DNA of 64,000 nucleotides from Pirellulales bacterium (GCA_963786255.1 CAWAYY010000021.1:3840-67839); one strand, 5' to 3'. Counted from the stretch's first letter, positions 1,919 to 62,921 are shown. Numbers and translations: made by a program. The notes: a model not told the origin generated them from the letters alone.

Positions 1919-1962
1919 GCAGTCCTCAACGTCACGCTGTTTTCGATGCCGATTTCATTTGG

Positions 1963-2892: not shown

Positions 2893-2899
2893 GCTCGTC

Positions 2900-5227: not shown

Positions 5228-5230
5228 GGA

Positions 5231-6227: not shown

Positions 6228-6229
6228 GG

Positions 6230-6874: not shown

Positions 6875-8656
<1,782 letters not shown>

Positions 8657-39287: not shown

Positions 39288-39346
39288 CCAGAGCAGGGTC
39301 CCATCGGACGAGTACTTGGCTACGAAGTCGTTATTGGCGCCGGTCG

Positions 39347-41362: not shown

Positions 41363-41587
41363 GAGCAGCCCCCGAAGGTGCAGTAGAAGACTAATTACGC
41401 GCGACGCCCGACGCTCGTACAAAGGTGCTTGCCCTGACAGAATGCGCCGCGAAAAAGAAGCGAGGCGCAAGATGCCCACAAGCCTTCAAGGCTCAATCGT
41501 GGAGAGAACCCGCCCGTGTTTTTTTTTTGCGAAGCGGTTTCGCTAGCCCTGGCCCGACCCTTGTCCGATAACCCGCATCGGGAGGGT

Positions 41588-41857: not shown

Positions 41858-43117
41858 TTAGATCGTGAATCGCCCCGCGACGCCTGCCGCCGGCGGCGGC
41901 GGGCTGCTGCGGTACTCTTCGGAGTCGATGATCTCGATCTGGATGTCGCGCTGCGAGGCGCCGGCCGCCATCTGCTGCACCAGGCCGTTCAACTCGTTGA
42001 ACGTGGGATTCCGTTGCAGGTATTCCTGATAGAAGCCGGTGACCAGGTTCTGGAAGTTCTCGGTGCTTTGCGTGAAGCCCAGCACCACTTCCTGCTTGGT
42101 TTTCAGACCCAGATCCAGTTGGTTGGTCCAGTAGGTCAGGCCTTGCTGGTCGGCGGTGCGGCCCAGCAGCCGTTGGTACAGCGCTTGGACCCAGGCTGAG
42201 TTCGTGCCGCCTGCGGAATTGAAGAACTCTTGCGAGCTGATCATGCCGGCGATGACGTTCTCCGGACCTCCGTCGCGCTTCCAGATGTTGCGCCAGTAAG
42301 TCAGGCCGGCGGCATCGGCCGTACGCAGCAGGTAGTCGTGATAGTACTGTTCGATGATCGGATCGAGCCGCTCGTTGCTCTCGAAGATGCCTTGAGCAAT
42401 CACGCTGACCGGATCGCCGTTGTCGAGCCGGCCGGTCCAGTACTTCAGGCCGCCGTCGTCCGGCGAGCGGTGAAGCACCTGCTGGTACAGTTTCTCGACG
42501 AGGCTGGCGTTGTAGGACAAGATCCGCACGGTCGCCACGCCGCTGTCGGCCAGGCCGTCGTTGGCTTTGTAAGTGAACGTATCGAGGGCGTTGAAGTTGG
42601 CGCCCTTGACGTAGGTGAAAGAGCCGTCGGCGTTCAACGTCAACGTGCCGGCGCTTGGGCCGCTGACGATTACCGCATGCAGCGTATCGCCGTTGACGTC
42701 CGTATCGTTGCTCAGCACGCCGGCGCCTGCGGCGGTGGTGCTGCTGGCGCTGTCGCTCAGCACGAAGGTGTCCGGCTGTGCGACCGGGGCCGTGTTGACG
42801 GTAATGTGGAACGTGACGGGCGCCGACGCATCGACGCCGCCGTTGGCCGTGCCGCCGTTGTCGTGCAACTGGACGGTGACGGTCGCCGTGCCCGTGACGC
42901 CGGCGGCGGGCGTGAACGTCAGGTTGCCGGTGGCGGCGTCAATCGCCGGCTGAGCCGAGAACAAGGCGTTGTTGTTGTTGCTGACCAGGAAGTTGAGCGT
43001 ATCCCCGGACTCGTTCGTCGGCCCCGCAGAGATATTCGTGGCCCAGTGAGACACAGTTTGCGCACCGGAGCCCGGCGCCAGGCGCTGATCGGAGCCGGCC
43101 GTAAAGCTGGGCGGCAT
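41858..43117 (-). CDS. giant exoprotein 1, segment 16 of 16 (last repeat, cadherin-like domain, four DUF4214 units)
   Basis: PSFTAGSDQRLAPGSGAQTVSHWATNISAG..., DTFVLSDSASSTTAAGAGVLSNDTDVNGDTLHAVIVSGPSAGTLTLNADGSFTY, LYQQVLHRSPDDGGLKYWTGRL..., LYQRLLGRTADQQGLTYWTNQL.... It ends SPPPPAAGVAGRFTI. Collinear with, and by eye about four-fifths identical to, 32613..33870. Confidence 0.85.
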   Translation of the reverse strand: MPPSFTAGSDQRLAPGSGAQTVSHWATNISAGPTNESGDTLNFLVSNNNNALFSAQPAIDAATGNLTFTPAAGVTGTATVTVQLHDNGGTANGGVDASAPVTFHITVNTAPVAQPDTFVLSDSASSTTAAGAGVLSNDTDVNGDTLHAVIVSGPSAGTLTLNADGSFTYVKGANFNALDTFTYKANDGLADSGVATVRILSYNASLVEKLYQQVLHRSPDDGGLKYWTGRLDNGDPVSVIAQGIFESNERLDPIIEQYYHDYLLRTADAAGLTYWRNIWKRDGGPENVIAGMISSQEFFNSAGGTNSAWVQALYQRLLGRTADQQGLTYWTNQLDLGLKTKQEVVLGFTQSTENFQNLVTGFYQEYLQRNPTFNELNGLVQQMAAGASQRDIQIEIIDSEEYRSSPPPPAAGVAGRFTI

Positions 43118-43886
43118 GGTTCACGTGGTTCACGCTGACGGTGATGGAGTCGTCGGCGGTCAGGCCCGCGGCATCCTTGGCCTGCAAATCGATGTGCGCC
43201 GTGCCGTACTGATCGGACTTGAGGTGCAGCGTGAGCATGCCATTGGCCAAGGTGGCGTCGAGCAAGTCGGGGTTGTCGTTGCCTGCCACGGACAACGTCA
43301 ATTGATCTCCGTAAATAATATCAACGTCGTCGAAGACGTTGGCCACGTTGAACACCAGGTCGGCGGCGTTTTCGTTGAGAGTCTTGGCAGCGACCGGCGC
43401 GGCGGGGTAGGGAGCATGGTTCACCGGCGAAAGCGTGATCTGGAAGTTCTGCGTCGCCGACGTGTCGACGCCGCCATGGGCCGTGCCGCCGTCGTCGTGC
43501 AACTTGACCGTAACGTTCGTCGTGCCCCGTTTGTTCAAGGCGGGCGTGAACGTCAGGTTGCCGTTGGCGTCGATGGCCGGCTGCACCGAGAACAGGCTTG
43601 GATCAGCAGCCGTAACGATGAAGTTCACCGTCTGGCTCGCCTGCTCGCTGGTCGTGCCCGCGTTGATGTCCGTGGCCCAGTTATTCACCGTATCCGTCGA
43701 GGAATCTTCATTAACAACGACGTTGTCCCCGGCCGTGAAACTCGGCGCGTGATTGACCAGGTTGACGGTGATGGTGAAAGTCTTGGTCGTCGTCTCGACG
43801 CCGCCGTTGGCCGTACCGCCGCCGTCATTTACTGTTACGGAGACGGTGGCCGTTCCGCTCATGTCGGTCGCCGGCGTGTACGTCAA
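42939..43886 (-). CDS. giant exoprotein 1, segment 15 of 16 (repeat units plus divergent DDVD-containing cadherin-like unit)
   Basis: VNLVNHAPSFTAGDNVVVNED..., SPVNHAPYPAAPVAAKTLNENAADLVFNVANVFDDVDIIYGDQLTLSVAGNDNPDLLDATLANGMLTLHL. The tail after VNHVNH (AAQLYGRLRS...) is out of frame, caused by an extra base at 43116. Confidence 0.8.
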   Translation of the reverse strand: MTYTPATDMSGTATVSVTVNDGGGTANGGVETTTKTFTITVNLVNHAPSFTAGDNVVVNEDSSTDTVNNWATDINAGTTSEQASQTVNFIVTAADPSLFSVQPAIDANGNLTFTPALNKRGTTNVTVKLHDDGGTAHGGVDTSATQNFQITLSPVNHAPYPAAPVAAKTLNENAADLVFNVANVFDDVDIIYGDQLTLSVAGNDNPDLLDATLANGMLTLHLKSDQYGTAHIDLQAKDAAGLTADDSITVSVNHVNHAAQLYGRLRSAPGAGLRCANCVSLGHEYLCGADERVRGYAQLPGQQQQQRLVLGSAGD

Positions 43887-43954
43887 GGTTCCCGTCGGGT
43901 CGATCGAGGGCTGGGCTGAGAACAGGCCCTGATTGTCGCTGGAGGCGGTGATCG

Positions 43955-44611
43955 TCAGAGTTTGCGCCGGATCGAAAGGCCCTTCGGTGATGTTCGTAGC
44001 CCAGCCGGGGATGGTTTGCGCCCGGCGTTTTCGTTGACGGTTTGGTCCGGTCCGAGGGTGATCGTCGGCGCGTGATTGACGAAGTTGACCGAGATCACGA
44101 AGGTCTGCGTATAGACGTCGACGCCGCCGTTGGCCGTGCCGCCGTTGTCGTGCAATACCACCGTCACGGTTGCCTGGCCGTAGGCATGGTCGGCCGGCGT
44201 GTACGTCAACGTTCCCGTGCTCGCGTCGATCGCCGGCGCGGCGGCGAACAAGCTGGGGTTGTCGGTCGTCACCGTGAAGTTGAGGATCTGGCCCGACTCG
44301 TTGGGCCCGTCGCTGATATTCGTCGCCCAGTTGGCCACGCTTTGCGGCCCCGCGTCCTCGTTGACGGTCTGATTGCCGCCGGGGGTGAAGCTCGGGGCGT
44401 CGTTGACCGGCGTGACGGTGATGGTGAACTGGTACGTTCCCGAAACGTCGACGCCGCCATTGGCCGTGCCGCCGTTGTCGTGCAACTGGACGGTGACGGT
44501 GGCGCTGCCGTTCGCGTTGGCTGCCGGCGTGTAGGTCAGCGTGCCGGACGAATCGATCGTCGGTTGCACGGAGAACAAGCCGTTATTGTTGTTGCTGACC
44601 AGGAAGTCCAC
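43955..44611 (-). CDS. giant exoprotein 1, segment 14 of 16 (two ~110-aa repeats)
   Basis: DFLVSNNNNGLFSVQPTIDSSGTLTYTPAANANGSATVTVQLHDNGGTANGG...VNDAPSFTPGGNQ...VNHAPTITLGPDQ. The break to segment 15 lies in a G3/C3 run near 44021. Confidence 0.8.
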   Translation of the reverse strand: MDFLVSNNNNGLFSVQPTIDSSGTLTYTPAANANGSATVTVQLHDNGGTANGGVDVSGTYQFTITVTPVNDAPSFTPGGNQTVNEDAGPQSVANWATNISDGPNESGQILNFTVTTDNPSLFAAAPAIDASTGTLTYTPADHAYGQATVTVVLHDNGGTANGGVDVYTQTFVISVNFVNHAPTITLGPDQTVNENAGRKPSPAGLRTSPKGLSIRRKL

Positions 44612-44627
44612 CGTCTGGCTGGCGTCT

Positions 44628-46259
44628 TCATTGCGGGCCGGCCGTGATATTCGTCGCCCAGTGGCTGACGCTCTTGGCGCCGGCGTCTTCCAGCACGGTT
44701 TGATTGCCGCCCGGGGTAAAGCTCGGAGCGTCGTTGATCGGGGTGACGGTAATGGTGAACGTCTGCGGGGCCGAGGTATCGACGCCGCCGTTGGCCGTAC
44801 CGCCGTTGTCCTGCAGTTCCACGGTCACGTTCGCCGTGCCGAAAGCATTGGGCGCCAGCGTATAAGTCAACGTTCCCGTGTTCGGGTTGATGGCGGGCGC
44901 CACGGCGAACAGGCTGGGCTTGTCGCTGCTGACAAGGAAGTTCACCGTCTGGCCGGACTCATTATTGGGGCCGGGATTGATGTTCGCGGGCGCGGCCCAA
45001 TTGATGACGCTGTGCAGGCCGGTATCTTCGCTGGCAGTCTGATCGGCCCCGACCGTGAATGTGGGGGCATCATTGACCGGCGTGACCGTAATGGTGAAGG
45101 TCTTGGTCGTCGTATCGACGCCGCCGTTGGTCGTGCCGCCGTTGTCGTGCAGTTGGACGGTCACGGTCGCCGTGCCGTTGGCGTCCGCCGCCGGCGTATA
45201 GCTCAACTCGCCCGTGTTCACGTCAACCGTTGGCTGCGCGGAGAACAGGGCGTTGTTGTTATTGCTGACGACAAAGTTCAGCGCCTGGCCGGATTCGTTC
45301 GGACCGGCGCTGATGGCCGTCGCCCAGTTCGGCACGCTCTGCGGACCGGCGTCTTCCAGCACCGTCTGGTTGCCGGCGGTGGTGAAGCTGGGCGGCTCGT
45401 TGACCGGGTTGACCGTGATGGTGAACGTTTGCGGGGCCGAGGTATCGACGCCGCCGTTGGCCGTGCCGCCGTTGTCGTGCATGATCACCGTGACGGTCGC
45501 CGAACCGCTGACGAAAGCCTGCGCCCGATAGGTCAGAATGCCGTTCGGGTCGATCGTCGGCTGCTCGGAGAACAGGCCGTTATTATCGTTCGTAACCTCG
45601 AAGCTCACCTGTTGGCTGGCTTCGTTGAGCGGGCCGGCCTTGATGTTGGTGGCCCAGATGACGGTGATTTCCTGGCCAGAACCTTCGTTGATCAACTGGT
45701 TCCCGGCGCCGGTGAACGACGGTGCATCGTTGACCGGGTTGACGGTGATGGTGAAGGTTTGGACGGCCGAGGTATCGATGCCGCCGTTGGCCGTGCCGCC
45801 GTCGTCGTGCAGCCGCACGCTCACGGTCGCCGTGCCAAAGGCGTTCGGCGCCGGCGTGTAGGTCAGATTGCCCGACGGATCAATCGCCGGTTGCGAGGAG
45901 AACAGCGAGTTGTTGGTGTTGGCGACCAGGAAATTCAGCGTCTGGCCGCTTTCGTTCGCCGGGCCCTTGCTGATAGTCGAGGCCCAGCCGGAGACGGTTT
46001 GCGCTCCCGCGTCTTCGTTGACGGTCTGGTTCCCGCCGGCCGTGAAGCTGGGGACGTCGTTGACTGAGCGGACCGTGATGGTAAAGGTCTGCACGGCCGA
46101 AGTATCCTGGCCGCCGAAGGCCGTGCCGCCGTCGTCGTGCAGTTGCACGCTCACGGTCGCCGTGCCGTTGGCGTCGGTCGCCGGCTGGTACGTCAACGCG
46201 CCGGTAATCGGATCGATCGCCGGCAGCGTGGCAAACAACGAGTCGTTGTTCGTCGTCAC
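44628..46259 (-). CDS. giant exoprotein 1, segment 13 of 16 (five ~110-aa repeats)
   Basis: VNDVPSFTAGGNQ, VNDAPSFTGAGNQ, VNEPPSFTTAGNQ, VNDAPTFTVGADQ and INDAPSFTPGGNQ junctions. The frame is open upstream to about 46390. The break to segment 14 is near 44633. Confidence 0.85.
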   Translation of the reverse strand: MTTNNDSLFATLPAIDPITGALTYQPATDANGTATVSVQLHDDGGTAFGGQDTSAVQTFTITVRSVNDVPSFTAGGNQTVNEDAGAQTVSGWASTISKGPANESGQTLNFLVANTNNSLFSSQPAIDPSGNLTYTPAPNAFGTATVSVRLHDDGGTANGGIDTSAVQTFTITVNPVNDAPSFTGAGNQLINEGSGQEITVIWATNIKAGPLNEASQQVSFEVTNDNNGLFSEQPTIDPNGILTYRAQAFVSGSATVTVIMHDNGGTANGGVDTSAPQTFTITVNPVNEPPSFTTAGNQTVLEDAGPQSVPNWATAISAGPNESGQALNFVVSNNNNALFSAQPTVDVNTGELSYTPAADANGTATVTVQLHDNGGTTNGGVDTTTKTFTITVTPVNDAPTFTVGADQTASEDTGLHSVINWAAPANINPGPNNESGQTVNFLVSSDKPSLFAVAPAINPNTGTLTYTLAPNAFGTANVTVELQDNGGTANGGVDTSAPQTFTITVTPINDAPSFTPGGNQTVLEDAGAKSVSHWATNITAGPQ

Positions 46260-46350
46260 GATGAAATTGAGCTGCTCGGTCGCCTCGACGGGGCCGGGAC
46301 CCGGAGTGATGTTCGTCGCCCAACTGGAGACGGTTTGTGCGGCCGCGTCT

Positions 46351-49300
46351 TCATTGACCGCCTGGTTCGGGCCCGCGGTAAAGCTGGGCGGCGTGGTTGA
46401 CGAAATTGAGCGTGATCTTGAAGGTTTGCGGCGTCGAGACGTTCACGCCGCCCAAGGCCGTGCCGCCGTTGTCCTGCAGCGTGACGGTCACATAGGCCAC
46501 GCCGCTGGCGTTGAGCGCCGGCGTATAGGTCAACGTGCCGGTCCCGGCGTCGATGCTGGGCTGCACCGCAAACAAGCTCGGCTGGTCGACCGCTACCAGG
46601 AAAATCAGCGTCTGGCCCGCTTCGTTGGGACCGGGGCTGATGGCCGTCGCCCAGTTGGCGACCGTTTGCGCCGGCGAGTTTTCGTCGACGGCCTGATCGG
46701 GGCCGGGCGTGAACGACGGCGGGTCGTTGACCGCATTGACGGTGATGGTGAAGGTCTGGGCGGCCGAAGTATCGACGCCGCCCAAGGCCGTGCCGCCGTC
46801 GTCGTGCAGGTAGACCGTGACGGTCGCCGAGCCATAAGCGTTGGCCGCCGGCGTATAGGTCAGGTTTCCGGAGGCGTCGATCGCAGGCTGCGCGGAGAAC
46901 AGCGAGTTGTTGTCGTTGCTGACCTGGAAATCCACTGTCTGCGCACCTTCGCCCGGGCCGGGGCTGATGGTCGTGGCCCAGGCGTTGACGGTCTGCAGAC
47001 CGGCGTCTTCGTTGACCGTTTGATTGGCGCCGACGGTGAAGCTCGGCGGGTCGTTGACCGCATTGACCGTGATGGTAAACGTCTGCTGTCCTGAAGCGTC
47101 GACGCCGCCCAAGGCCGTGCCGCCGTTGTCGAACAGCTCGATCGTGACCGTTGCAGAACCGTTGATGTTGGCCGCGGGCGTGTACGTCAACGTTCCCGTC
47201 GCCGGGTCGACTACCGGTCCGGCGGCGAACAAAGCGGGATTGTCGCTGCTGATCACGAAGTTCAGCGTCTGGCTCGCCTCATTGGGGCCGGCGCTGATGG
47301 CCGTGGCCCAGCCGGTGACGGTCTGCGGGCCGGCGTCTTCATTGACGGTTTGATCGGCGCCCTCGGTGAAGCTCGGGGCGTCGTTGACGGCGCTGACGGC
47401 AATGACGAAGGTCTGCGCGGCCGACGTGTCGAGTCCGCCGTAGGCCGTGCCGCCGTCGTCGTGCAGATAGACCGTGACGGTCGCCGAGCCGTAGGCGTTG
47501 GCCGCCGGCGTATAGGTCAGGTTTCCGGAGGCGTCGATCGCCGGCTGTGCAAAGAACAACGCGTTATTGTCGTTGTTGACCAGGAAGTTCAGCGTCTGGC
47601 CGGCCTCGTCCGTGGGGCCGGGGCTGAGGCTGGTCGCCCAGGCGTTGACGGTTTGCGGCCCGGCGTCCTCGTTGACGGTCTGATTCGGCCCTGCAGTGAA
47701 GCTCGGGGCGTCGTTAACGGCGTTGACGGTGATGGTGAAGGTCTGCGTCGGCGAGGTGTCGACGCCGCCCAGGGCCGTGCCGCCGTTGTCGTGCAGGTAG
47801 ACCGTGACCGTCGTCGAGCCGTTGGCGTTCGGGGCGGGCGTATAGGTCAACGTCCCCGAGGCGTCGATGGCCGGCTGTACGGAGAACAGCGGGTTGTTGT
47901 CGTCGCTGACCATAAACGTCAGCGTCTGGCTGGCTTCGTTGGGTCCCGCGGTGACGTTCGTCGCCCAGCCGGTTACCGTCTGCGGCCCGGCGTCTTCGTT
48001 TACGGTTTGGTCCGCGCCCTCGGTGAAGCTCGGGGCGTCGTTGATCGCATTGACGGTGATGGTAAAGGTCTGAGCGGCCGAGGTATCGACGCCGCCGTTG
48101 GCCGTACCGCCGTTGTCGTGCAATTGCACGGTTACCGTCGCCACGCCGTAAGCGTTGGCTGCGGGAGTAAACGTCAGGTCGCCGGTTACGGGATCGATCG
48201 CCGGGCCGGCTGAGAACAAGCCGGCGTTATCGCTGCTGATCAGGAAATCGACCGTCTGGGCCGCTTCGTTCGGTCCCGGGCTGATGCCGGTGGCCCAGGC
48301 CGATACGGTCTGCGGACCGGAGTCTTCGTTGACGGTCTGGTTGGGGCCGGCGGTGAAGCTCGGGACATCGTTGACGGCGTTGACCGTGATGGTGAAGGTC
48401 ACCGGGGCGCTCGTGTCCACGCCGCCGTTGGCCGTGCCGCCGTTGTCGTGCAGTTGCACGGTGACCGTCGTCGAACCGTAGGCGTTGGCGGCGGGGGTAT
48501 AGGTCAGGTTTCCGCTGGGATCGATGAACGGCTGCGCGGAGAACAACGCGTTGTTGTCGTTGCTGACCAGGAAGTTCAGCGTCTGGCTGCTTTCATTCGC
48601 CGGGCCCTTGCTGATGGCCGTGGCCCAATTGGAGACGACCTGCAGGCCGGCGTCTTCATTGACGGACTGGTTGCCGCCGGGCGTAAAGCTGGGGACGTCA
48701 TTGACCGCGTTGACGGTAATGGTGAACGTTTGCGGGGCCGACTTGTTGACGCCGCCATTGGTCGTGCCGCCGTCGTCTTGCAGGTAGACGGTCACCGTCG
48801 CCACGCCGTTGGCGTCGGGGGCGGGCGTGTAGGTCAGCGTTCCGGTGGCCGCATCGACGGTCGGCTGCGCGGAGAACAGCGCGTTGTTGTCGTTGCTGAC
48901 CTGGAAGATGACGGTTTGGTCGCTTTCGTTGGCGCCGGGGCTGATACCCGTCGCCCAACTGGTCGCCGTCTGCGGTCCGGCGTCTTCGTTGACGGTCTGG
49001 TTGGGGCCTTCCGTGAAGATCGGCGCGTCGTTGATGTAAACGACGGTGATCGGAATGGTGATCGAAGACGACAAGGCGGGCGTCGGCGAGTTGCCGTTGT
49101 CGTTGACCGTCACGGTAACCTGGGCCAGATCGCCCAGGTGGCTGTTAAAGTCGGCGTCTGGCGTGAAGGTCAGCCCTTCCAACGCGGCGTTGATGCCGGG
49201 CGTGGAAGTGAACGCGTCGGCCTCGCCCAGCGGCGCCGTGATGACCAGCAGGCTCGTGCCGTTGCCGTCGATGCCATTGCCGGGGACCACTCCGAGCGAA

Positions 49301-50766: not shown

Positions 50767-51484
50767 GTTGATGCCCGTGCCGACCGGTGCCGGCGGCGTC
50801 CGTATACCCGCCGTAGATCGTGTTATTCACGAGCCTGCCGAACGGCACGGCGGCCGACGGGCCGCTCGTGTTCGGATCGCCGGCAAAGGTGATGCCGTTG
50901 CCGCTGGCGCCCACGCCGTAGATCAGGTTGTTGATGATCGTCACGCCCGGCGCCAGGCGGGCGCTGTTGAGCGTGGGCGTGTTAACCACGGCGCCCTGGT
51001 GCGGGAAGCTGGAGTTGCTGTCGCCCGCCAGGTAGTTGGCGCCGCCGTCCAGGACCGGCACGCTAAGAACCTGTCCGCCGCCGATGACCGCGGCGCCGAG
51101 TACGGCGCCGTTTCCGCCGCCCGAGACCGAGACGATCGGCGCCGACGAGTAGCCGCTGCCGCCGTTGGTGATCGTGATGCTCACAATCTGCCCCTGGCCG
51201 TTGACGACCGCGACGCCTTGGGCGCCGCTTCCGCCGCCGCCGCTGAAGCTGACCGACGGACCGACCAACTGCCCGCGCGGCGAAGCCTCGACCAGGATGC
51301 CGCTGTTCTGCGAGTTGCTGATCTGGTTCCCTTCCAGGATCACGGCGCCTTGCGGCCGCGGCATCGTCGTGGCGCCGAAGTCGGGCGTGAACTGGTCGCT
51401 GACGCCGATATCGTACTTGATCACAAACGTGTTCTGCCCCGACAGGCCGCCGGGGCCGAAAAACGTCTGGTCGAGCGGGTTCAA
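50117..51484 (-). CDS. giant exoprotein 1, segment 11 of 16 (GSGYSSAP-type modules, beta-helix turns)
   Basis: LNPLDQTFFGPGGLSGQNTFVIKYD..., SGGGGSGAQGVAVVNGQGQIVSITITNGGSGYSSAPIVSVSGGGNGAVLGAAVIGGGQVLSVPVLDGGANY, VTIINNLIYGVGASGNGITF, LVNNTIYGG. In frame down to about 50790. The Arg/His-rich remainder is read-through. Confidence 0.8.
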   Translation of the reverse strand: MNPLDQTFFGPGGLSGQNTFVIKYDIGVSDQFTPDFGATTMPRPQGAVILEGNQISNSQNSGILVEASPRGQLVGPSVSFSGGGGSGAQGVAVVNGQGQIVSITITNGGSGYSSAPIVSVSGGGNGAVLGAAVIGGGQVLSVPVLDGGANYLAGDSNSSFPHQGAVVNTPTLNSARLAPGVTIINNLIYGVGASGNGITFAGDPNTSGPSAAVPFGRLVNNTIYGGYTDAAGTGRHGHQRGRQRQSDHAEQHPGQPANRHSRRCVVTELAVQACPGREPLPEQFEQLQRRPGQLQHSTAADRSVVHHARHRSGAGEFLLEGILAGHRQFDQQPAGPRDDDRGHRAAGHRPFADHCAIGRRLRPVARPRSQRLAFPRVGQQRVHRPRRRRTGRQPVGRPHGRALVAGGQRRQRFELVVERRLRPRPELVGVQHPAQRRRRARRVRRQRLAVRLCRD

Positions 51485-56876: not shown

Positions 56877-58425
56877 GTTCGCGCCGGCTGCGCTTCGATG
56901 CGCGAGCCGCCCAGTTTGACCAGCACGCCCGGCTCGACCAGGAGCTGGCCGGCGTCCGCGCTACGTCAATGCCGTTGATCCGCAGGTTGCCGCCCGCGTT
57001 GCCCGTGATGATCAGGTTCTCCTGCAGCACGTAGGGAATGTCGGTGGCGGCGAACACGGCGGACACGTCGAGCGTGTCAAGCGACTGCCCGGCGTTGGTG
57101 TCGATGCGCACCAGGATGCCGTTGATCGTGTCCTGCGCAGCCCCGACATAACTCAGGCCGAGCTGCTGGCTGGCGTTGTTGGGGTTGTAGACCGGCGCCG
57201 TTGCTGCGGGACCGGTGGTCAACCGGTTGCCGTGGACGTCGGGTCCGAAACGCTGGTAATCGGCATAGAAGGCATCTGGAGTGAAGATCAGCGACCCGAT
57301 GCCGAGCGGGCCGAGCAGCGTTACGCCGTTGACGGCGATGTCGGTCGGCAGCGTGACGAGGTTGCCCAGCGATTCGGCCTGGTTGACCGCCGTGGCATAG
57401 ATGTTCGCGTTGATAGCGGCCTTGACGGCGCCGGCCACCTGGGTCGTGGTCGTCATGCCGGCGATCGAGATGCCAATGTACCCGGGCGTGACGACGCCCG
57501 TGGTCGTGAACTGGAACTTCACCGTGCCGAGGGTGAACTGGTCTCCATTGGCAGGGAGGGAGCTGACGGTGATCGTCAGATCGCTGCCGAAGTGGGTGCT
57601 TTCGAAGCTGTTGGGGTTGCCCGAGATGGCCGCTCCGGCGCCGTTGATGATCAGGTCGTTGGTGATTGCCGGCCGGGCGGTGTCGAGATAGATCGAGTCG
57701 TAGTTGTTCGGCACGCCGTTGACCACCACGCGGCCGCCGCCGTAGTTGATCGTGGCCTCGTTGACGCTGTTCAAAAAGATGCCGAGCGTCTCCAGGTCGG
57801 AGTCGTTATTGAACACCAACCCGCCCCAGTCGCCCGGCGCTGCGGTGAGGCCGGGATGGTTCTGCGGGGCGCCGAGCGAGGGCGTGTCATCGTTGTACGA
57901 GGTGAAGACGGCTTGCTGGCCCGGAACGCCCAGCACCTGAATGGCGCTCTGGCTCTGATCGAGGTTCACGGCCGAACTGCCGGCCTCGATGTTCGCCTGC
58001 CGCAGCTTGAACACCGCGCCGGCATCGACCATCAGCACGGTATTCTTGGGCAACTGCAGAATCGAATTGGCCGGCGAGTCGTCTGCGAGCAGGTTGCCGA
58101 ACTGGTCGGTTCCCACCAGGTACGAACGGTTGTTGTTGTTGATCGTCGGCGGCGTGACGCCGGGGATCGACTTGCTGAAAGGGGCCGTTTGCTTGTTGAC
58201 GGTGATCGGCTGGGCGCCCTGGAACAGGTAGACGTAAACGTAATTTCCGTCGTCGTTCGTGCTGAGCACGCCGTCGATGCGTCGCGTGACGGTTACGCCG
58301 CCGCCATCCGGGGCCGTCAGCTTGACCTGGCGGCCGGTTGGCAGCGTGAGCGTCGCCGTGTTGATGGCATCAAAGATCGCCAGCGACACGTTTGCCGACG
58401 TGGGGTTGGGCAGGTTGCCGATCAC
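56866..58425 (-). CDS. giant exoprotein 1, segment 8 of 16 (beta-helix block, TFEFTT-type module 3)
   Basis: QAVFTSYNDDTPSLGAP..PGDWGGLVFNNDSD, ITNDLIINGAGAAISGN, GDQFTLGTVKFQFTTTGVVTPGYIGISIAGMTTTTQVAGAVKAAINA. Two closely spaced breaks (about 56958 and 56884) lead into segment 9 through the short stretch DAGQLLVEPGVLVKLGGSRIEAQP. Confidence 0.85.
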   Translation of the reverse strand: MIGNLPNPTSANVSLAIFDAINTATLTLPTGRQVKLTAPDGGGVTVTRRIDGVLSTNDDGNYVYVYLFQGAQPITVNKQTAPFSKSIPGVTPPTINNNNRSYLVGTDQFGNLLADDSPANSILQLPKNTVLMVDAGAVFKLRQANIEAGSSAVNLDQSQSAIQVLGVPGQQAVFTSYNDDTPSLGAPQNHPGLTAAPGDWGGLVFNNDSDLETLGIFLNSVNEATINYGGGRVVVNGVPNNYDSIYLDTARPAITNDLIINGAGAAISGNPNSFESTHFGSDLTITVSSLPANGDQFTLGTVKFQFTTTGVVTPGYIGISIAGMTTTTQVAGAVKAAINANIYATAVNQAESLGNLVTLPTDIAVNGVTLLGPLGIGSLIFTPDAFYADYQRFGPDVHGNRLTTGPAATAPVYNPNNASQQLGLSYVGAAQDTINGILVRIDTNAGQSLDTLDVSAVFAATDIPYVLQENLIITGNAGGNLRINGIDVARTPASSWSSRACWSNWAARASKRSRRERDR

Positions 58426-59399
58426 GACGGCGAAATTCGTATCGGTCGGCGAAACCTGAATGCCGTTGCGCCCGTGGCCACGAATTCGAAATTGAACGTG
58501 TACGGGCCGACGACGACTTGGAACGTTTGCCCGAGGGCGATGCCGTTCTGACTGACGGCGAGCGCAAGCGTCGCGTGGGCGTTCGGCTCAACGCGCACGT
58601 TCACCTGCTCGCCGGCCGCGGCCGCGCCGGTAACGATCGGATCGTTGAGGGCCGCGTTGATCGTGTTGTATGGATTAGTGTTGGAGCCGATCGCACCAAC
58701 GCCGGTTCCGCCGTTCGGCGCGGCCTTGTCGACGTAGACCGTCTGGCCGACGTTGAACCAGAAGTTGTACGCGCCCGTTCCGCCCGGTCCGGAGTTGCCG
58801 ACGAGCGGATCGAGTTGCGTGGTTCCCCACAGCACCAGCGGGAACGGGTCGCTGGCCGAACCGGTCAGATTGCCCTTGGCCTGCGGATCGACCACGATGG
58901 TCGTCGTCAGCGCGCCGCCCACCTCGATGCGGCCGTTGCCAATGTCGGTGAGAATGTATTGGCCATTGGTGTTGTTGAAATGGCCGTCGGCAATCGCCTG
59001 GTTCAGGGCGTTGATCAAGTTCTGCGTCACCGCCTCCTGCGTGTCGCCCGCGTTCAACTGCACATTGACGTGTCCCGGCGTGTTGGCGGGCTTGGTCTCT
59101 CCGTTGTAGAACGTGATCGTCTCGGTTACGGCCTGTCCGGTGTTTTGGTCAACGTCGGTCAGCGTGAAGCTGTAAGGATAATTCGGCTGGCCGACGGAAG
59201 GGAACGCACTGGCGCCGCCGGCGGGCACGAACAGCGACACGCCGGGGTTGGTCAGCGGTTTGGTCGCGGTCGGCTGGAAGTTGAGCCGCAACTTATACTG
59301 CCCGAACGTGTTGCCGCCCCAGCCGCTGTAGGCCACGTTGGGATCGAACTGGTCGTTGCCGGTTGCGGTGACGACGGCGTAGTAGATGCCGGGCTGCAC
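58422..59399 (-). CDS. giant exoprotein 1, segment 7 of 16 (PPC-like domain, unassigned region, module 2)
   Basis: In frame from about 59474: PNLWWRKEIARNDNYYGTDSFASLGVQPGIYYAVVTATGNDQFDPN...GQYKLRLNF (PPC-like). Then ...NPYNTINAALNDPIV... and GQTFQVVVGPYTFNFEFVATG. The break near 58470 continues NGIQVSPTDTNFAVVIGNLPNPTS in segment 8. Confidence 0.8.
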   Translation of the reverse strand: MQPGIYYAVVTATGNDQFDPNVAYSGWGGNTFGQYKLRLNFQPTATKPLTNPGVSLFVPAGGASAFPSVGQPNYPYSFTLTDVDQNTGQAVTETITFYNGETKPANTPGHVNVQLNAGDTQEAVTQNLINALNQAIADGHFNNTNGQYILTDIGNGRIEVGGALTTTIVVDPQAKGNLTGSASDPFPLVLWGTTQLDPLVGNSGPGGTGAYNFWFNVGQTVYVDKAAPNGGTGVGAIGSNTNPYNTINAALNDPIVTGAAAAGEQVNVRVEPNAHATLALAVSQNGIALGQTFQVVVGPYTFNFEFVATGATAFRFRRPIRISPS

Positions 59400-60213
59400 G
59401 CCGAGGCTGGCGAACGAGTCGGTTCCGTAGTAGTTGTCGTTGCGCGCGATCTCCTTGCGCCACCAGAGATTGGGTGACTGTCGTTCCGGTGGTGGTGACC
59501 GTGATGGGGCCGGCCAGTTCGACGATGCCGGCGCCGATCGTCGCCGTCACGTTCAACCCTTGCGTCTGGATGGCGCCGATGATCGAGACCGCGATATCCT
59601 GCCGCGAGCTCGAGGACGTAAAGGGCACGGCGATGTTGCCGTCGCCCAGCACGCTGCCCGGATCGACGGATTGCGTGGTGAACTCGAATGTGACCGTGCT
59701 ACCCGTGTTGTCCGTGATGGTGAACGTATCCGTGTTGACGGCCTGGGCGCCGCTGGCCGGCAGGCTTAAGTCATTGAACTCTTCGTACAAAGTCAGCAAC
59801 GTGTTGAGCTGGCTGACGCCGGCCAAGCGCTGGGCCTGCGTTTCGGCGTTGAGCGTGCCGGGCGAATCGATCGTGAATTTGTAGGGATCGATCTGGTTGC
59901 TGGTCGGCTCGTAGGTGAACTGCAGGTTTGTGATGTCGGCGATGCCGGGGAATAGGCCCTGCGCGCCGCCGCCTGCCTGATTCGACTCCGCGCCGCCGTT
60001 CATCACCGTATCCGGCGGGCTATTGTCGTTGTGCGGCAAACCAAGCGTGTGGCCGATCTCGTGCATCGCCACGCTCATGAAGCCGCTGCCGTACAGGCTC
60101 GAACCCCAGTCGATGCCGCCATTGATAATGGCCTCGCCGATGCCGAGCGAAGCAATGCCGCCGACGGTGGGCGGCACGGCTTGACGCGCCTGGAGCGCAC
60201 GTGGGTCGCCCAC
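59293..60213 (-). CDS. giant exoprotein 1, segment 6 of 16 (metzincin zinc site, PPC-like domain, TFEFTT module 1)
   Basis: GFMSVAMHEIGHTLGLPHNDNSPPDTVMNGG (HExxHxxGxxH plus a candidate Met-turn). IDPYKFTIDSPGTLNAETQAQRL..LLTLY is PPC-like. DTFTITDNTGSTVTFEFTTQSVDPGSVLGDGNIAVPFTSSSSRQDIAVSIIGAIQ. In frame to about 59474. Confidence 0.85.
   Translation of the reverse strand: MGDPRALQARQAVPPTVGGIASLGIGEAIINGGIDWGSSLYGSGFMSVAMHEIGHTLGLPHNDNSPPDTVMNGGAESNQAGGGAQGLFPGIADITNLQFTYEPTSNQIDPYKFTIDSPGTLNAETQAQRLAGVSQLNTLLTLYEEFNDLSLPASGAQAVNTDTFTITDNTGSTVTFEFTTQSVDPGSVLGDGNIAVPFTSSSSRQDIAVSIIGAIQTQGLNVTATIGAGIVELAGPITVTTTGTTVTQSLVAQGDRAQRQLLRNRLVRQPRRAARHLLRRRHRNRQRPVRSQRGLQRLGRQHVRAV
60031..60063 (-). 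other. metzincin zinc-binding motif HEIGHTLGLPH inside giant exoprotein 1
   Basis: The plus strand 60031-60066 GTGCGGCAAACCAAGCGTGTGGCCGATCTCGTGCAT is the reverse complement of ATG CAC GAG ATC GGC CAC ACG CTT GGT TTG CCG CAC (M-HEIGHTLGLPH). Confidence 0.85.
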
Positions 60214-60722
60214 GACGATCCATCGGCGCCGCTGTAGCCCGACGCCTCGATAAAATGCAGCCCGGTGTAATAGCTGTAGAGCTGGAAGATCTCGCGAATC
60301 GTTTGCTTCTGATTTTCGGTGATCTGGTTGTGCAGCGGCTGATGCGTCGTCGGATTGCTCCCGTAGACGTCCGGAAAGCTGTAGGTATATTCCTGGGCGC
60401 TGCCGGCAACGATGCTGCCGACGTGGTTCTCGTCGCTGATCGGAATATCACGGTGCCCGGGGTCGGCCTTGCCGCCTGGAAACACGAGACCGCTGATGAT
60501 GGATTGCTGGCTGATGTTGCCGCTGAAGATCACCGTCTGCTGGTCCGAAGGCAGCGGGTCGGGCAGTCCGGCGACGGGCGAGCCCGGCAGTTCCGTCGCG
60601 CTGGCGAACGTACCGTTTCTGAGCGGAGGAGGGGGAGATCGTGAAGTGAGCGACGGCCGTGGCCCAGTCGCCGCTCGCTTGGGCGACCTCGCTGGCTCCC
60701 CAGAAGCTGCCGTCGCTGTCAA
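60075..60722 (-). CDS. giant exoprotein 1, segment 5 of 16 (linker and N-terminal half of the metzincin domain)
   Basis: In frame from the G5/C-rich run near 60632 (...HFTISP|PPLRNGTFASATELPG...): DIPISDENHVGSIVAGSAQEYTYSFPDVYGSNPTTHQPLHNQITENQKQTIREIFQLYSYYTGLHFIEASGYSGADG. A break near 60220 leads into segment 6. Confidence 0.8.
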   Translation of the reverse strand: MTATAASGEPARSPKRAATGPRPSLTSRSPPPPLRNGTFASATELPGSPVAGLPDPLPSDQQTVIFSGNISQQSIISGLVFPGGKADPGHRDIPISDENHVGSIVAGSAQEYTYSFPDVYGSNPTTHQPLHNQITENQKQTIREIFQLYSYYTGLHFIEASGYSGADGSSWATHVRSRRVKPCRPPSAALLRSASARPLSMAASTGVRACTAAAS

Positions 60723-61365
60723 CGTTGATGCCGCTCATGTCCCCTTCGCGGCTACCGGCGTAGTTCGCCTGACCAGCCTGAACGAGCACGGGCGTATTCA
60801 TGGCCCCCGCGGTATCGCTCGCCGCGCGGCCTGTGACGTAGGTCGACATGAACTGGCCGGCGGTTGTGCCCGATGCGGTGAATACCATGCCGATATCGCC
60901 CTGCTGGTTGATGGCGATGGCGGGATAGGCATAGTACGTGTTCGGTCCGCCGGTCACATCGCCCTGCTGCATCAGCGTGGGCGTGCCGCTGCTGGCATCG
61001 ATTTCGTACCACTGGATCTCATCGACGTTGCCGACGGCGTCGGAAACCGCGTGAGCCGCCACGATTACGCCGTTCACCATCGACGCGCTCATGATCCGCG
61101 AATCGGTGCCTGTCGTGATCGCCGAGCCGTCAGGCTGCAATTCAGGCACGGCCTGGTGATAGGGGATCACCGGCAGAGTGGTCGTGGTGAGCGTGGGGGT
61201 GTTAGTAAAGCAAATTCGACATCTTGATGACGTCGACCGACTGATTGTCGCCGTGCTCGGTGACAAACCACATGGGATCGCCCGGCTGCGAGTCTTGCAT
61301 GGCCGTCGGCCGCAGGTTGTACGCGCCGGCCACGTCGTGCTGAAACGCGTTGACGCCGAGCGCAA
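60448..61365 (-). CDS. giant exoprotein 1, segment 4 of 16 (unassigned globular region, part 3)
   Basis: In frame from about 61210: TNTPTLTTTTLPVIPYHQAVPELQPDGSAITTGTDSRIMSASMVNGVIVAAHAVSD..EIQWYEIDASSGTPTLMQQGDVTGGPNTYYAYPAIAINQQGDIGMVFTASG...SGINVDSDGSFWGASEVA. Propeller-like by eye; no family recognised. Confidence 0.7.
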   Translation of the reverse strand: MRSASTRFSTTWPARTTCGRRPCKTRSRAIPCGLSPSTATISRSTSSRCRICFTNTPTLTTTTLPVIPYHQAVPELQPDGSAITTGTDSRIMSASMVNGVIVAAHAVSDAVGNVDEIQWYEIDASSGTPTLMQQGDVTGGPNTYYAYPAIAINQQGDIGMVFTASGTTAGQFMSTYVTGRAASDTAGAMNTPVLVQAGQANYAGSREGDMSGINVDSDGSFWGASEVAQASGDWATAVAHFTISPSSAQKRYVRQRDGTAGLARRRTARPAAFGPADGDLQRQHQPAIHHQRSRVSRRQGRPRAP

Positions 61366-61462
61366 GGGGCGTGCCGCTCGTCAGCGCGCTGATCGAAATG
61401 GAATTCACCAGCACGTGTGGGACGTTGAAAAGCGTGTAATCGAAGCTGTTTTCCGTGATCAC
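61202..61462 (-). CDS. giant exoprotein 1, segment 3 of 16 (unassigned globular region, part 2)
   Basis: The frame is open upstream to about 61596 (IGRANSFTAADWNFFELNTSEPGIAIQDYPGNIGYTADALVITENSFDYTLFNVPHVLVNSISISALTSG...WFVTEHGDNQSVDVIKMSNL). Confidence 0.7.
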   Translation of the reverse strand: MITENSFDYTLFNVPHVLVNSISISALTSGTPLALGVNAFQHDVAGAYNLRPTAMQDSQPGDPMWFVTEHGDNQSVDVIKMSNLLY

Positions 61463-61530
61463 CAGGGCGTCGGCGGTGTAACCGATATTGCCGGGGTAGT
61501 CCTGGATTGCGATGCCCGGTTCGGAGGTGT

Positions 61531-61986
61531 TCAGTTCAAAGAAGTTCCAATCCGCGGCGGTAAACGAGTTGGCGCGGCCGATTTCGATACGGCCAGCACG
61601 ATCGCATCGCTGCCGGCTTCGTTCGTGTAGATATCGGCGACGACAAAACGCTGCACCGAAGGAACAAAGGTGCTGAAGGCGTCGCCCAGGAAAGAGCCCG
61701 GGTTGGTTGTCAGGCCGCCAGTCGTGAAAAAGAGAGTGTTGAGCGAGTCGGTGGCGATGGTCGCCCCGGTAGTCTTGCTGAAAAGGGAAACCGCGGTATT
61801 GACGGTCTCGACGTAGCTGCTCGGCCCGACGGCGCCTTGAGTGTCGGGCGGCTCGATACCGTAGCCGTTAAGCGTCTGATTCGACGTGTTGCTAATGCCT
61901 TGAAAATGGTTGACAAGGTTGACCGGGGGCGTCGCCACGACGGGCTGGAGCGTCGTGGCCGGCACTTCGTCATTACCGATCCGCAA
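61531..61986 (-). CDS. giant exoprotein 1, segment 2 of 16 (unassigned globular region, part 1)
   Basis: The frame is open upstream to about 62022 (STALGSGNGAFRLRIGNDEVPATTLQPVVATPPVNLVNHFQGISNTSNQTLNGYGIEPPDTQGAVGPSSYVETVNTAVSLFSKTTG...). In frame down to about 61596. Confidence 0.7.
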   Translation of the reverse strand: MRIGNDEVPATTLQPVVATPPVNLVNHFQGISNTSNQTLNGYGIEPPDTQGAVGPSSYVETVNTAVSLFSKTTGATIATDSLNTLFFTTGGLTTNPGSFLGDAFSTFVPSVQRFVVADIYTNEAGSDAIVLAVSKSAAPTRLPPRIGTSLN

Positions 61987-62921
61987 GCGGAAGGCGCCGT
62001 TGCCCGAACCGAGCGCAGTCGAGATTGAAGCCCGACTGGAACACGATTCGCGCTTCGTTATTCAGCGCGTCGTACTGGACGGAACCGGGCACGTGGATGG
62101 TCCCGTCGGCCCTTGGAAACGGATCCTCGAAGATCGCCTGCGGGTCAGGGACGTAAGTCACGTCGTCGGTCGTGGTCGCCGTGTTCTGTGTGGCGATGAG
62201 CTGGAATTGGCTGGCGCTCAGTTGCGTGCGATCGCCCGGCAGCGTCTGAACGGGGGCGTTGAAGTAGACGTCGATCTCGTTGTTGTGCGGCGTGAGCACG
62301 CCATTGCTGTCACGCGTGACCGGCTGCGGCACGACCGAGAGCACTTGCGGACCGAGTTGCAGCCGGAAGTCCTGCGTGACGTTTTGGCCGCCGTTGAAGG
62401 ATAAAGCCGGGCGTGCCGTGTCCTTCAACGCGCCGGCGCCGGCGCCGACGACGGTGATCTGGTAGAGATCGTCCGGCAGCGGCGAGCTGAAGCGCATCAC
62501 CACCTGGTTGGGCTGCGCGGGATCGATGCCGATGTAGCCGGGCGTAATCGCGACATCGTTGCCGTTGTAGCCGACCGACCGATCGTTCGCGTCGAAAACT
62601 CCGTCGCCGCCCGTGCCCTCAAGCTGAACGCCGCTGAGCGTGTTCGGATCGAGCGTTTCGCCAGCCGAAAGCAGGAAACGGAACGTGAGCTGCGTCGGCG
62701 CCGTGTGCAGCGTTGCGTTCGGGAGCAGCACGCTGCCATCGTTGGGAATGATGGAGATGAGCTGCGGCCCGCTGGTGAGCAGCAAGCGCCCTTCCAAGGC
62801 TTCCAGGCTGCGGCTTTCGGCCTTGCCTACTTTGCCTGACTTGCCCCGACGAGTATTGGAACGCCGCGAGACGCGACCGCTGCGCAGAATCCCACTGACG
62901 GAACGACTGCCAAACGCCCAT
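61973..62921 (-). CDS. giant exoprotein 1, segment 1 of 16 (basic leader, SLEALEGRLLL motif, Ig-like sandwiches)
   Basis: The only plausible start is ATG 62921 (MGVWQSFRQWDSAQRSRLAA...). A break near 62855 leads into ...RRSNTRRGKSGKVGKAESRSLEALEGRLLLTSGPQLISIIPNDGSVLLPNATLHTAPTQLTFRF... (ORF 61973..62797). It is preceded by an ~820-nt non-coding region. Confidence 0.75.

What the first reader, a model, noticed from the sequence alone, without database searches (positions are those of the whole stretch)
41858..62921. One ~21-kb, ~7,000-codon giant exoprotein gene is hidden behind at least 17 frame breaks
Sixteen minus-strand ORFs tile 62921->41858. The gaps in the ORF track are under ~90 nt and are all bridged by upstream extension of the next frame. 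At each junction the protein continues sensibly in the next frame:
- ...AIHSSNVLPSAL|DASFKGSATDYMVHLEPV (about 54634)
- ...TTGTTVT|PNLWWRKEIARNDNYYG (about 59474)
- ...GAYGG|QLNPLDQTFFGPGG (about 51488)
- ...HFTISP|PPLRNGTF (about 60632)
There is only one plausible start (ATG 62921, basic leader plus SLEALEGRLLL) and one terminal stop (41858).
Reconstructed order: leader, Ig-like sandwiches, ~480-aa unassigned globular region, metzincin (HEIGHTLGLPH), PPC-like domains, right-handed beta-helix blocks (NNIIQNNAGAAVSV, NNTIYGG, NNILANL), propeller-like and jelly-roll-like regions, GSGYSSAP-type modules, about 18 copies of a 110-aa Ig/cadherin-like repeat, cadherin-like domain, four DUF4214 units.
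ORF-by-ORF annotation would report about 16 unrelated hypothetical proteins instead of one megaprotein.
Basis: partly seen in the sequence, partly recalled or inferred. Interest (0 to 1): 0.75.

Follow-up and report, generated by a model that had tools for sequence, protein, structure and literature searches.

The report
Giant planctomycete surface-protein gene, broken by errors
The sixteen reading-frame pieces are one 21-kb gene for a 7,020-residue surface protein of a Pirellulales bacterium; the 17 frame breaks are most likely single-base errors of a noisy long-read assembly, and both the gene type and the artefact are already known.

Summary
On the minus strand, 16 overlapping open segments tile 62921->41858. 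Third-codon-position G+C content (GC3) stays high along them, with no non-coding gap. A codon-model frame path needs 17 single-base frame events and no in-frame stop, and it gives a 7,020-aa product.

Uninterrupted orthologous ORFs in short-read Pirellulales MAGs and in isolates (6,000 to over 7,400 codons; up to 69% identity) align colinearly. Together with stand-alone homologues of an inserted domain, they span 16 of the 17 breaks well. The break at ~60618 has thinner support. They also confirm the start (MGVWQSF...LEALEGRLLL) and the stop.

The breaks are almost certainly assembly errors. Unrelated genes in the window are broken at a similar density: ATPase alpha and gamma, DUF2254, DUF1501 and a second giant paralogue. 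Nanopore-derived relatives show the same tiling.

Architecture, N- to C-terminus:
- basic leader with a LExLExRxLL motif
- Ig-like domains
- an inserted beta-propeller, absent from the relatives whose loci cover that region
- M10-like metzincin plus a PPC-like segment
- a poorly characterised ~3,000-aa backbone with a beta-propeller/beta-sandwich core
- 20 tandem-95/Big_9 repeats
- four DUF4214 units

It is a new member of a large, known class of planctomycetal giant genes. Interest is low.

The parts
41858..62921 (-). Whole giant gene: 21,064 nt as assembled. Removing 9 extra bases and restoring 8 missing ones gives 7,020 codons plus the stop.
   Evidence: The ends match orthologues L020/L007 (start) and L003 (stop).
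62777..62921 (-). N-terminal basic leader with the LExLExRxLL motif (MGVWQSFRQWDSAQRSR...SLEALEGRLLLTSGPQLISIIPN). It contains frame event 1, at ~62837-62807.
   Evidence: L007 begins MGVWQSFPRWDSAR...VEALEGRLLLTSGPSLISIIPN. The same motif occurs in most family members whose N-terminus lies inside the locus and in the stand-alone propeller proteins.
61933..62776 (-). N-terminal Ig-like/beta-sandwich region (aa 49-329). Frame event at ~62017.
   Evidence: 66% identity to L005 and 57% to L020 across the junction. Only a weak CopC-like Pfam hit.
60619..61932 (-). Inserted ~438-aa beta-propeller domain (aa 330-767). It is absent from the close relatives whose loci cover this region (L001, L005, L020, L012, L013) and has no tblastn match in any of the 82 fetched loci. 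Frame events at ~61590, ~61204 and ~60618.
   Evidence: No tblastn hit in the 82 loci. 67 homologues, mostly 500-750-aa stand-alone proteins, 45-56% identity at 99% coverage. AlphaFold2 pLDDT 94.3, pTM 0.93. Generic or sialidase-like propeller matches, TM 0.42-0.49.
59920..60371 (-). M10 (matrixin)-like metzincin catalytic domain. HEIGHTLGLPH is at 60063-60031, followed by DTVMNG. Frame event at ~60197-60221.
   Evidence: On the stitched sequence, Peptidase_M10 scores 24.5 bits against a cut-off of 24. It aligns to MMP-12 residues 18-124, E 0.005. The motif is conserved in L003 and L005. Relatives P0082 and P0086 carry Peptidase_M10 + PPC.
54630..59922 (-). PPC-like segment, then ~1,700 aa of conserved backbone with no significant Pfam or NCBIfam match. 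Frame events at ~59454, 58469, 56964 and 56890.
   Evidence: One 1,821-column HSP at 69% identity to L003 spans five junctions: these four and the one at ~60197. Only sub-threshold PPC and Beta_helix hits.
51487..54629 (-). Family hallmark core: beta-propeller plus beta-sandwich, with the nearly invariant FS.LDYNLWH.T motif (DYNLWH at 53370). Bounded by frame events at ~54629 and ~51486.
   Evidence: Alignments A1 and A3. 1,519 representative proteins match the profile. The AlphaFold2 model is confident only for residues ~80-440 and 500-650, and its propeller matches are generic.
49144..51486 (-). Beta-helix-like segment and linker region (aa 3813-4593). Frame event at ~50785.
   Evidence: Beta_helix E 0.0025, below the cut-off. 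56-71% identity to L003, L004 and L005 across the junction.
42602..49143 (-). Twenty tandem copies of a ~110-aa Ig/cadherin-like repeat (tandem-95 / Big_9 / Cadherin_5). Frame events at ~46395, 44633, 44023 and 43118.
   Evidence: TRF finds period 330 nt x 15.3 copies. A repeat HMM finds 20 copies whose register runs through all four junctions. NF012211 scores 147.9 bits against a cut-off of 90. Big_9 and Cadherin_5 hits.
41858..42601 (-). C-terminal module of four DUF4214 units, a proline-rich tail and the TAA stop at 41860-41858.
   Evidence: DUF4214 scores 141 bits in 4 stretches. The alignment with L003 ends at the last residue of both proteins.

Best explanation
Window 62921->41858 (minus strand) is one gene for a ~7,020-residue, cysteine-free, multidomain extracellular or cell-surface protein of a Pirellulales (Planctomycetota) bacterium. 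The 17 frame breaks are single-base insertion/deletion errors in the consensus of a noisy, probably low-coverage long-read assembly. They are not biological features. Shown: the pieces are colinear with single intact ORFs in accurately sequenced relatives, and unrelated genes in the same window carry the same kind of break at a similar density. Inferred function: an N-terminal basic leader with a LExLExRxLL motif directs export. The protein carries an M10-type zinc metalloprotease domain, two beta-propeller modules and beta-helix/beta-sandwich modules that would bind or process substrates. A stalk of 20 Ig-like repeats and a DUF4214 C-terminal module complete it. It would therefore act as a giant surface adhesin or enzyme scaffold, as is assumed for other planctomycetal giant genes.
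For: Tiling and continuous GC3. Frame path of 17 events (9 of +1, 8 of -1), no in-frame stop, no shared motif. Intact orthologues: L003 >7,426, L004 >7,477, L005 >7,439 and L020 >7,107 codons open; L012 6,420 aa and L013 6,410 aa complete; isolates Stieleria marina 5,400 aa and Neorhodopirellula pilleata 5,715 aa. Colinear alignments at 62-69% identity cross 14 junctions. Two more are crossed by full-length homologues of the insert, and the stitched insert folds with pLDDT 94. The repeat register is kept through four junctions. The 25-aa interlude between two close -1 events matches the orthologues. Errors are window-wide: the ATPase alpha C-terminal domain is spread over three frames, gamma over two, DUF2254 over at least two, DUF1501 is truncated, and a second giant paralogue has 4 internal events. 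Event density is 0.81 per kb in this gene and 0.46 per kb in the paralogue. Nanopore-derived MAG loci and L001/L002 show the same tiled fragments (PMC12313526). For function: no Cys in 7,020 aa; Peptidase_M10 at threshold, an MMP-12 alignment and a conserved HExxHxxGxxH; tandem-95 repeats and DUF4214.
Against: No reads, coverage or platform information are available for this contig, so the error explanation is indirect. The breaks do not sit in long homopolymers (longest run 2-3 nt in the six intervals I could narrow), so they are not the classic homopolymer error. The junction at ~60618 lies exactly on the boundary between the inserted propeller and the backbone, and only one marginal alignment crosses it. 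Function is inferred from domain content only. About 3,000 aa have no significant family match. The metzincin evidence is at threshold. The LExLExRxLL leader has no hydrophobic signal-peptide core and matched no NCBIfam model.
Confidence: 0.9

Rival explanations
1. The gene is a true pseudogene: a formerly giant gene now decaying through real frameshift mutations in the organism.
For: The frame breaks are present in the only sequence available. Giant genes are costly and can be lost. The breaks are not in long homopolymers.
Against: Core genes of an ATPase operon and other unrelated genes in the same window are broken at a comparable density. There is not one nonsense substitution in 7,020 codons. 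GC3 stays at 0.8-0.9 in every piece. Identity to orthologues is uniformly 62-69% across pieces. Relatives from long-read assemblies show the same pattern, while short-read ones never do.
Confidence: 0.05
2. The breaks are mixed: most are assembly errors, but one or a few are real. The most likely candidate is the one at ~60618, next to the inserted propeller domain. The product would then be truncated, or the gene split in two.
For: Junction 60618 coincides with a domain-insertion boundary and lacks solid ortholog support. The insert is unique to this genome among the fetched loci.
Against: The f1 frame runs on for another 170 nt without a stop and the f2 frame is open from 60734. Coding GC3 is continuous. 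One more random error in 21 kb fits the background rate. The orthologues fuse both flanks in one ORF.
Confidence: 0.04
3. The pieces are sixteen separate genes, or the product is made by programmed ribosomal frameshifting or transcriptional slippage.
For: Start-codon-limited ORF calling lists separate ORFs. Public gene calls on related long-read contigs also list separate proteins.
Against: The pieces overlap in different frames with no intergenic space. Homology to single ORFs runs across the junctions. Seventeen shifts in both directions share no slippery motif. The same 'shifts' occur in ATPase genes.
Confidence: 0.01

Closest known systems
Planctomycetal 'giant genes' (Reva & Tummler 2008; Kohn et al. 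2016, PMC5177795)
   Same: The gene is over 20 kb, single-ORF in relatives, non-PKS/NRPS and of surface-protein type, from a Pirellulales lineage. The cited paper reports genes over 20 kb in 15 of 29 planctomycetal genomes.
   Different: This copy is seen only as 16 frame-shifted pieces. No member of this particular family has a tested function.
Unnamed Pirellulales/Planctomycetota family with the FS.LDYNLWH.T propeller/beta-sandwich core. NCBI names fragments of it 'PPC domain-containing protein' (P0080, P0088).
   Same: Order of modules: LExLExRxLL leader, Ig-like region, M10 metzincin + PPC, backbone, core, beta-helix, Ig-like repeats, cadherin-like domain, DUF4214. Identity to L003 and L005 is 62-69% over thousands of residues.
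   Different: It carries a ~438-aa beta-propeller inserted between the N-terminal Ig-like region and the metzincin. This insert is missing from L001, L005, L020, L012 and L013. It also has a longer repeat array than L001.
Matrixin/serralysin-type (MEROPS M10) metzincins such as MMP-12 and karilysin
   Same: HEIGHTLGLPH zinc-binding motif with a Met eight residues further on. Helix A through the motif aligns with the MMP-12 catalytic domain.
   Different: The sequence match is only at threshold. The domain is embedded in a 7,020-aa protein. No pro-domain cysteine switch is possible because the protein has no Cys. Activity is untested.
Giant repeat adhesins of Gram-negative bacteria (LapA, SiiE and MpIBP type, secreted by type I systems; from general knowledge)
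   Same: It works like them in outline: a long stalk of tandem Ig-like repeats with ligand-binding or enzymatic modules, and a cysteine-free composition rich in Thr, Asn, Gly and Ala.
   Different: No RTX/HemolysinCabind repeats or C-terminal T1SS signal were detected. The termini differ: a LExLExRxLL leader and a DUF4214 tail. It is not a member of that group.

Membership tests
Planctomycetal giant gene (>5 kb; >20 kb class) | Single ORF longer than 5 kb (here more than 20 kb) | tested here: met
   21,064 nt from ATG to stop. A single ORF only after correcting 17 one-base events. Orthologues are single ORFs.
Planctomycetal giant gene (>5 kb; >20 kb class) | Encoded in a Planctomycetota genome | tested here: met
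   79 of the 80 related genomic loci are labelled Planctomycetota; the one exception (L071) is labelled beta proteobacterium. The closest at 52-59% (tblastn) and 62-69% (BLASTP) are Pirellulales MAGs. DUF1501 and LExLExRxLL-leader proteins lie nearby. No rRNA or tRNA gene in the window for a direct assignment.
DYNLWH-core giant protein family (unnamed) | Nearly invariant F-S-x-L-D-Y-N-L-W-H-x-T motif within a propeller/beta-sandwich core at about residue 2,000-4,000 of a giant protein | tested here: met
   The motif is at aa 3185 (window 53370). Invariant columns in A1. Profile hits place the domain at residue ~2,000-4,000 of 3,000-7,700-aa proteins.
DYNLWH-core giant protein family (unnamed) | Colinear module order with intact members from N- to C-terminus | tested here: met
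   Ordered HSPs against L003, L005, L020, L012 and L013 run from q1 to q7019, apart from the inserted propeller.
Metzincin, family M10 (matrixin-like) | HExxHxxGxxH zinc-binding motif | tested here: met
   HEIGHTLGLPH at aa 953, conserved in L003 and L005.
Metzincin, family M10 (matrixin-like) | Profile match above the curated threshold over the catalytic domain | tested here: inconclusive
   PF00413 scores 24.5 bits against a cut-off of 24, but only profile positions 106-127 are matched. The phmmer alignment to MMP-12 covers residues 18-124 at E 0.005.
Metzincin, family M10 (matrixin-like) | Met-turn beneath the zinc site, and catalytic activity | not testable with these tools
   A candidate Met is present (DTVMNG, 8 residues after the third His).
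Tandem-95 repeat protein (NCBIfam NF012211) / Big_9 | Score above the curated cut-off, with multiple tandem copies | tested here: met
   147.9 bits against 90, 8 stretches in one piece. 20 copies found with a self-built HMM.
DUF4214-containing protein (PF13946) | Pfam match above the gathering score | tested here: met
   141.3 bits against 23.2, four units at the C-terminus.
RTX / type I-secreted giant adhesins | Calcium-binding RTX nonapeptide repeats near the C-terminus | tested here: not met
   No HemolysinCabind or related hit in any piece. The C-terminus is DUF4214.
Programmed frameshift gene | Conserved slippery sequence at the shift site, with the shift conserved in relatives | tested here: not met
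   No shared motif at the 17 sites. Relatives are in frame at every site that could be compared.
LEPR-XLL domain proteins (NCBI product name, recalled from memory) | Match to the NCBIfam model | tested here: not met
   No NCBIfam hit for the window's N-terminus or for that of Stieleria marina, even at E <= 10. The resemblance of the LExLExRxLL motif is only a lead.

The most novel reading that the evidence does not exclude
At least some of the frame breaks are real. One version is that the population carries a decaying or split giant gene. Another is that the break beside the uniquely inserted beta-propeller marks a recent, still unresolved domain-insertion event. Separately, the propeller insertion itself may define a new architectural variant of the family.
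Probability: 0.06. Interest if true: 0.35.

Novelty: new member of a known kind. Interest (0 to 1): 0.18.

Why it matters
The main value is practical. Annotating this contig ORF by ORF would report about 16 unrelated hypothetical proteins for this gene and about 5 more for its neighbour, where there are two giant surface proteins. The same fragmentation already appears in public protein sets derived from long-read metagenomes. This inflates counts of hypothetical proteins and hides giant genes. Biologically, the gene adds one more member, with an extra propeller module, to a large and functionally untested family of planctomycetal giant proteins. It does not open a new question.

Tried and rejected
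1. Looking up the window's own protein P0001 in the contig index gave nothing, so the source sample, platform and coverage remain unknown.
2. Pfam and NCBIfam on the separate pieces left pieces 2-5 and 7-11 unannotated.
3. NCBIfam found no model for the LExLExRxLL leader. A literature search for 'LEPR-XLL' gave only two incidental mentions.
4. I tested whether the indels sit in homopolymers. In the six intervals narrowed with orthologues, the longest run is 2-3 nt. My script then failed on the closely spaced pair at 56964/56890, which I checked separately. A homopolymer signature is therefore not supported.
5. The structure prediction of the 1,050-aa core was only partly confident (pLDDT 55.5), and its PDB matches were generic propellers. 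No function could be drawn from it.
6. The insert's PDB matches put sialidases on top, but at TM 0.42-0.49 and about 10% identity. I do not call it a sialidase.
7. Consensus promoter and terminator scans at both gene ends found nothing.
8. No tRNA gene is present in the window for taxonomic anchoring.
Full report
**Observation.** Stop-to-stop scanning of the minus strand gives 16 open segments between 62980 and 41861. Each overlaps the next in a different frame. Third-codon-position G+C content (GC3) of about 0.8-0.9 follows exactly that path in 300-nt windows, so no stretch looks non-coding.

I trained a codon-usage model on the long pieces. I then ran a Viterbi decoder that allows single-base skips and forbids in-frame stops.
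- From ATG 62921 to the TAA at 41860-41858 it needs 17 frame events.
- Their approximate positions are 62837, 62017, 61590, 61204, 60618, 60197, 59454, 58469, 56964, 56890, 54629, 51486, 50785, 46395, 44633, 44023 and 43118.
- Nine events are an extra base and eight are a missing base.
- No nonsense codon is needed, and the product is 7,020 aa.

Two events are invisible as ORF junctions. One lies between the ATG, which is in another frame, and the LEALEGRLLL motif. The other is one of a pair of -1 events 74 nt apart. The 25-residue interlude between that pair (AGQLLVEPGVLVKLGGSRIEA) matches the orthologues residue for residue.

**Is it one gene?**
- A homology search with the longest non-repeat piece found few proteins. 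The best was a partial protein from a Pirellulales MAG.
- Two related ENA contigs with 'contig_N' names (L001, L002) carry colinear homologues that are themselves cut into many same-strand gene calls. L001 stays in frame where the window breaks, and the window stays in frame where L001 breaks.
- A scan of species-representative genomes with a profile of the conserved core returned 80 loci. 79 are labelled Planctomycetota, mostly Pirellulales; L071 is labelled a beta proteobacterium.
- In short-read (megahit/SPAdes) MAGs and in isolates the homologue is one uninterrupted frame. L003, L004, L005 and L020 are open for more than 7,426, 7,477, 7,439 and 7,107 codons. L012 and L013 are complete at 6,420 and 6,410 aa. 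Stieleria marina K23_9 has 5,400 aa and Neorhodopirellula pilleata Pla100 has 5,715 aa.
- The stitched window protein aligns colinearly with these at 62-69% identity (L003, L005). Single alignments cross 14 of the 17 junctions. One 1,821-column HSP at 69% identity crosses five.
- The first residues (MGVWQSF...EALEGRLLLTSGP.LISIIPN) match L007 and L020. The last residue aligns with the last residue of L003.
- Inside the repeat array, an HMM of the 110-aa unit finds 20 consecutive copies. Their register runs straight through four junctions.

**The inserted domain.**
- Residues 330-767 (window 61932-60619) have no counterpart in the close relatives whose loci cover this region (L001, L005, L020, L012, L013). 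tblastn also finds no match in any of the 82 fetched loci.
- The stitched 434-aa sequence finds 67 homologues. Most are stand-alone 500-750-aa hypothetical proteins at 45-56% identity and 99% coverage. They have the same LExLExR-type leader.
- Those full-length matches validate the two internal junctions.
- AlphaFold2 models the stitched sequence with pLDDT 94.3 and pTM 0.93. The fold is a beta-propeller. PDB matches are generic, with sialidases on top at TM 0.42-0.49, so I claim no enzymatic identity.
- The third junction (~60618) lies exactly at the boundary between insert and backbone. Only one alignment, to L012, crosses it, and by 7 residues. It is the least supported of the 17.

**Why the frame is broken.** The same defect occurs in unrelated genes of the window.

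| Gene | Defect |
|---|---|
| ATPase alpha | C-terminal domain read in three frames (Pfam profile positions 16-51 in one, 47-125 in another) |
| ATPase gamma | profile 2-191 in one frame, 211-285 in another |
| DUF2254 | profile 45-134 in one frame, 127-367 in another |
| DUF1501 | lacks its N-terminal half in frame |
| Second giant gene, ~41360->32615 | 4 internal events in ~8.75 kb |

- Event density is 0.81 per kb in the finding's gene and 0.46 per kb in its neighbour. ATPase alpha has 2 events in about 1.5 kb.
- All 17 disruptions are +/-1 indels in both directions, with no shared slippery motif. There is no nonsense substitution in 7,020 codons.
- Loci from the Microflora Danica MAGs show the same overlapping, frame-switching pieces. 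Those MAGs were made by deep Nanopore sequencing (PMC12313526). Short-read relatives never show the pattern.
- The best explanation is therefore consensus indel error in a noisy long-read assembly. This is an inference, because no reads or coverage are available; the window's own protein could not be traced to a sample.
- One caveat: in six junction intervals narrowed with orthologues, the longest homopolymer is 2-3 nt. These are not classic long-homopolymer errors. They look like the random indels of a low-coverage or unpolished consensus.

**What the protein is.** The modules, N- to C-terminus:
- **Leader.** A basic leader with the LExLExRxLL motif. The motif is shared by most family members but has no classical hydrophobic signal core and no NCBIfam model.
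- **Ig-like region.** About 280 aa.
- **Inserted propeller.** Described above.
- **Metzincin.** HEIGHTLGLPH followed by DTVMNG, conserved in L003 and L005. On the stitched sequence, Peptidase_M10 scores 24.5 bits against a cut-off of 24. It aligns to MMP-12 residues 18-124 at E 0.005. Relatives P0082 and P0086 have Peptidase_M10 followed by PPC.
- **PPC-like segment.** Supported only at sub-threshold level in the window.
- **Backbone.** About 1,700 aa of conserved sequence with no family match.
- **Hallmark core.** It carries the nearly invariant FS.LDYNLWH.T motif. A partly confident model shows a beta-propeller plus a beta-sandwich.
- **Beta-helix-like stretch.** Sub-threshold only.
- **Repeats.** Twenty tandem-95/Big_9/Cadherin_5 copies.
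- **C-terminus.** Four DUF4214 units and a proline-rich tail.

The protein has no cysteine and is rich in Ala, Thr, Gly and Asn, which is usual for extracellular bacterial repeat proteins. From this I infer a giant exported surface protein. It would combine a stalk of Ig-like repeats with binding or hydrolytic modules. No step of that mechanism has been tested.

**Comparison with what is known.**
- Giant genes are a documented trait of Planctomycetes. All 29 genomes examined by Kohn et al. had genes over 5 kb, and 15 had genes over 20 kb (PMC5177795).
- The core profile matches 1,519 representative proteins (816 at E <= 1e-30). Most of the best are 3,000-7,700 aa long, with the domain at residue ~2,000-4,000, as in the window.
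- The gene is thus a new member of a large family that is already present in public sequence data, though unnamed and functionally untested. Its one distinguishing feature is the extra propeller module.
- It resembles type I-secreted giant adhesins in overall logic. It lacks RTX repeats, so it is not a member of that group.

**Verdict.** The cause is an assembly artefact, novelty is modest and interest is low. Its value is as a caution for annotating long-read metagenomes. Public protein collections already contain fragments of such genes as separate 'proteins' (P0008, P0009, P0010, P0085).

Noticed in passing
window 32613-41479 (minus strand): A second, paralogous giant gene lies directly downstream. 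It encodes ~2,900 aa and has the leader ...HEPLEERVLLAS. Domains: SBBP beta-propeller repeats, SdrD_B, Big_9/cadherin repeats and four DUF4214 units. Its C-terminal tail is almost identical to that of the first gene. It is cut into 5 pieces by 4 frame events at ~39541, 37706, 36753 and 33841.
   Followed up: partly
window 1995-7274 (minus strand): An F-type ATPase operon (epsilon-like, membrane subunits a/c/b, alpha, gamma; the order resembles the N-ATPase type). Alpha is read in three frames and gamma in two. This is the clearest sign that indels affect the whole window.
   Followed up: partly
window 588-1954 and 14342-15653 (minus strand): A DUF2254 membrane-protein gene is split over two to three frames. 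A DUF1501 gene has only profile positions 148-390 in frame. Both are further frameshifted genes.
   Followed up: partly
L019, L028, L032, L041, L045, L065, L077, L078; L001, L002: Relatives from Nanopore-based MAGs (Microflora Danica) and from two ENA 'contig_N' assemblies show the same tiled, frame-switching fragments of giant genes.
   Followed up: partly
window 60619-61932; proteins P0013-P0060: The inserted propeller belongs to an uncharacterised family with no Pfam match on the propeller itself. Most members are stand-alone 500-750-aa proteins with a LExLExR leader. Some carry extra DUF11, PKD, dockerin or fn3 domains.
   Followed up: partly
window 62922-63400 (upstream of the start, minus strand): An unusually A+T-rich, low-GC3 non-coding stretch with T runs (TTTTTTTAATTTCC, GTCTTTTTTTATTTTCCC) lies upstream of the ATG. 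A purine-rich GGGGGATCGAAGGAC sits just before it. No sigma-70 consensus match was found.
   Followed up: partly
L071 (CAVVXV010000013.1): One related locus is labelled 'uncultured beta proteobacterium' (MFD05442.bin.2.270), whereas all the others are Planctomycetota. This could be a mislabelled or chimeric bin, or a transfer event.
   Followed up: no
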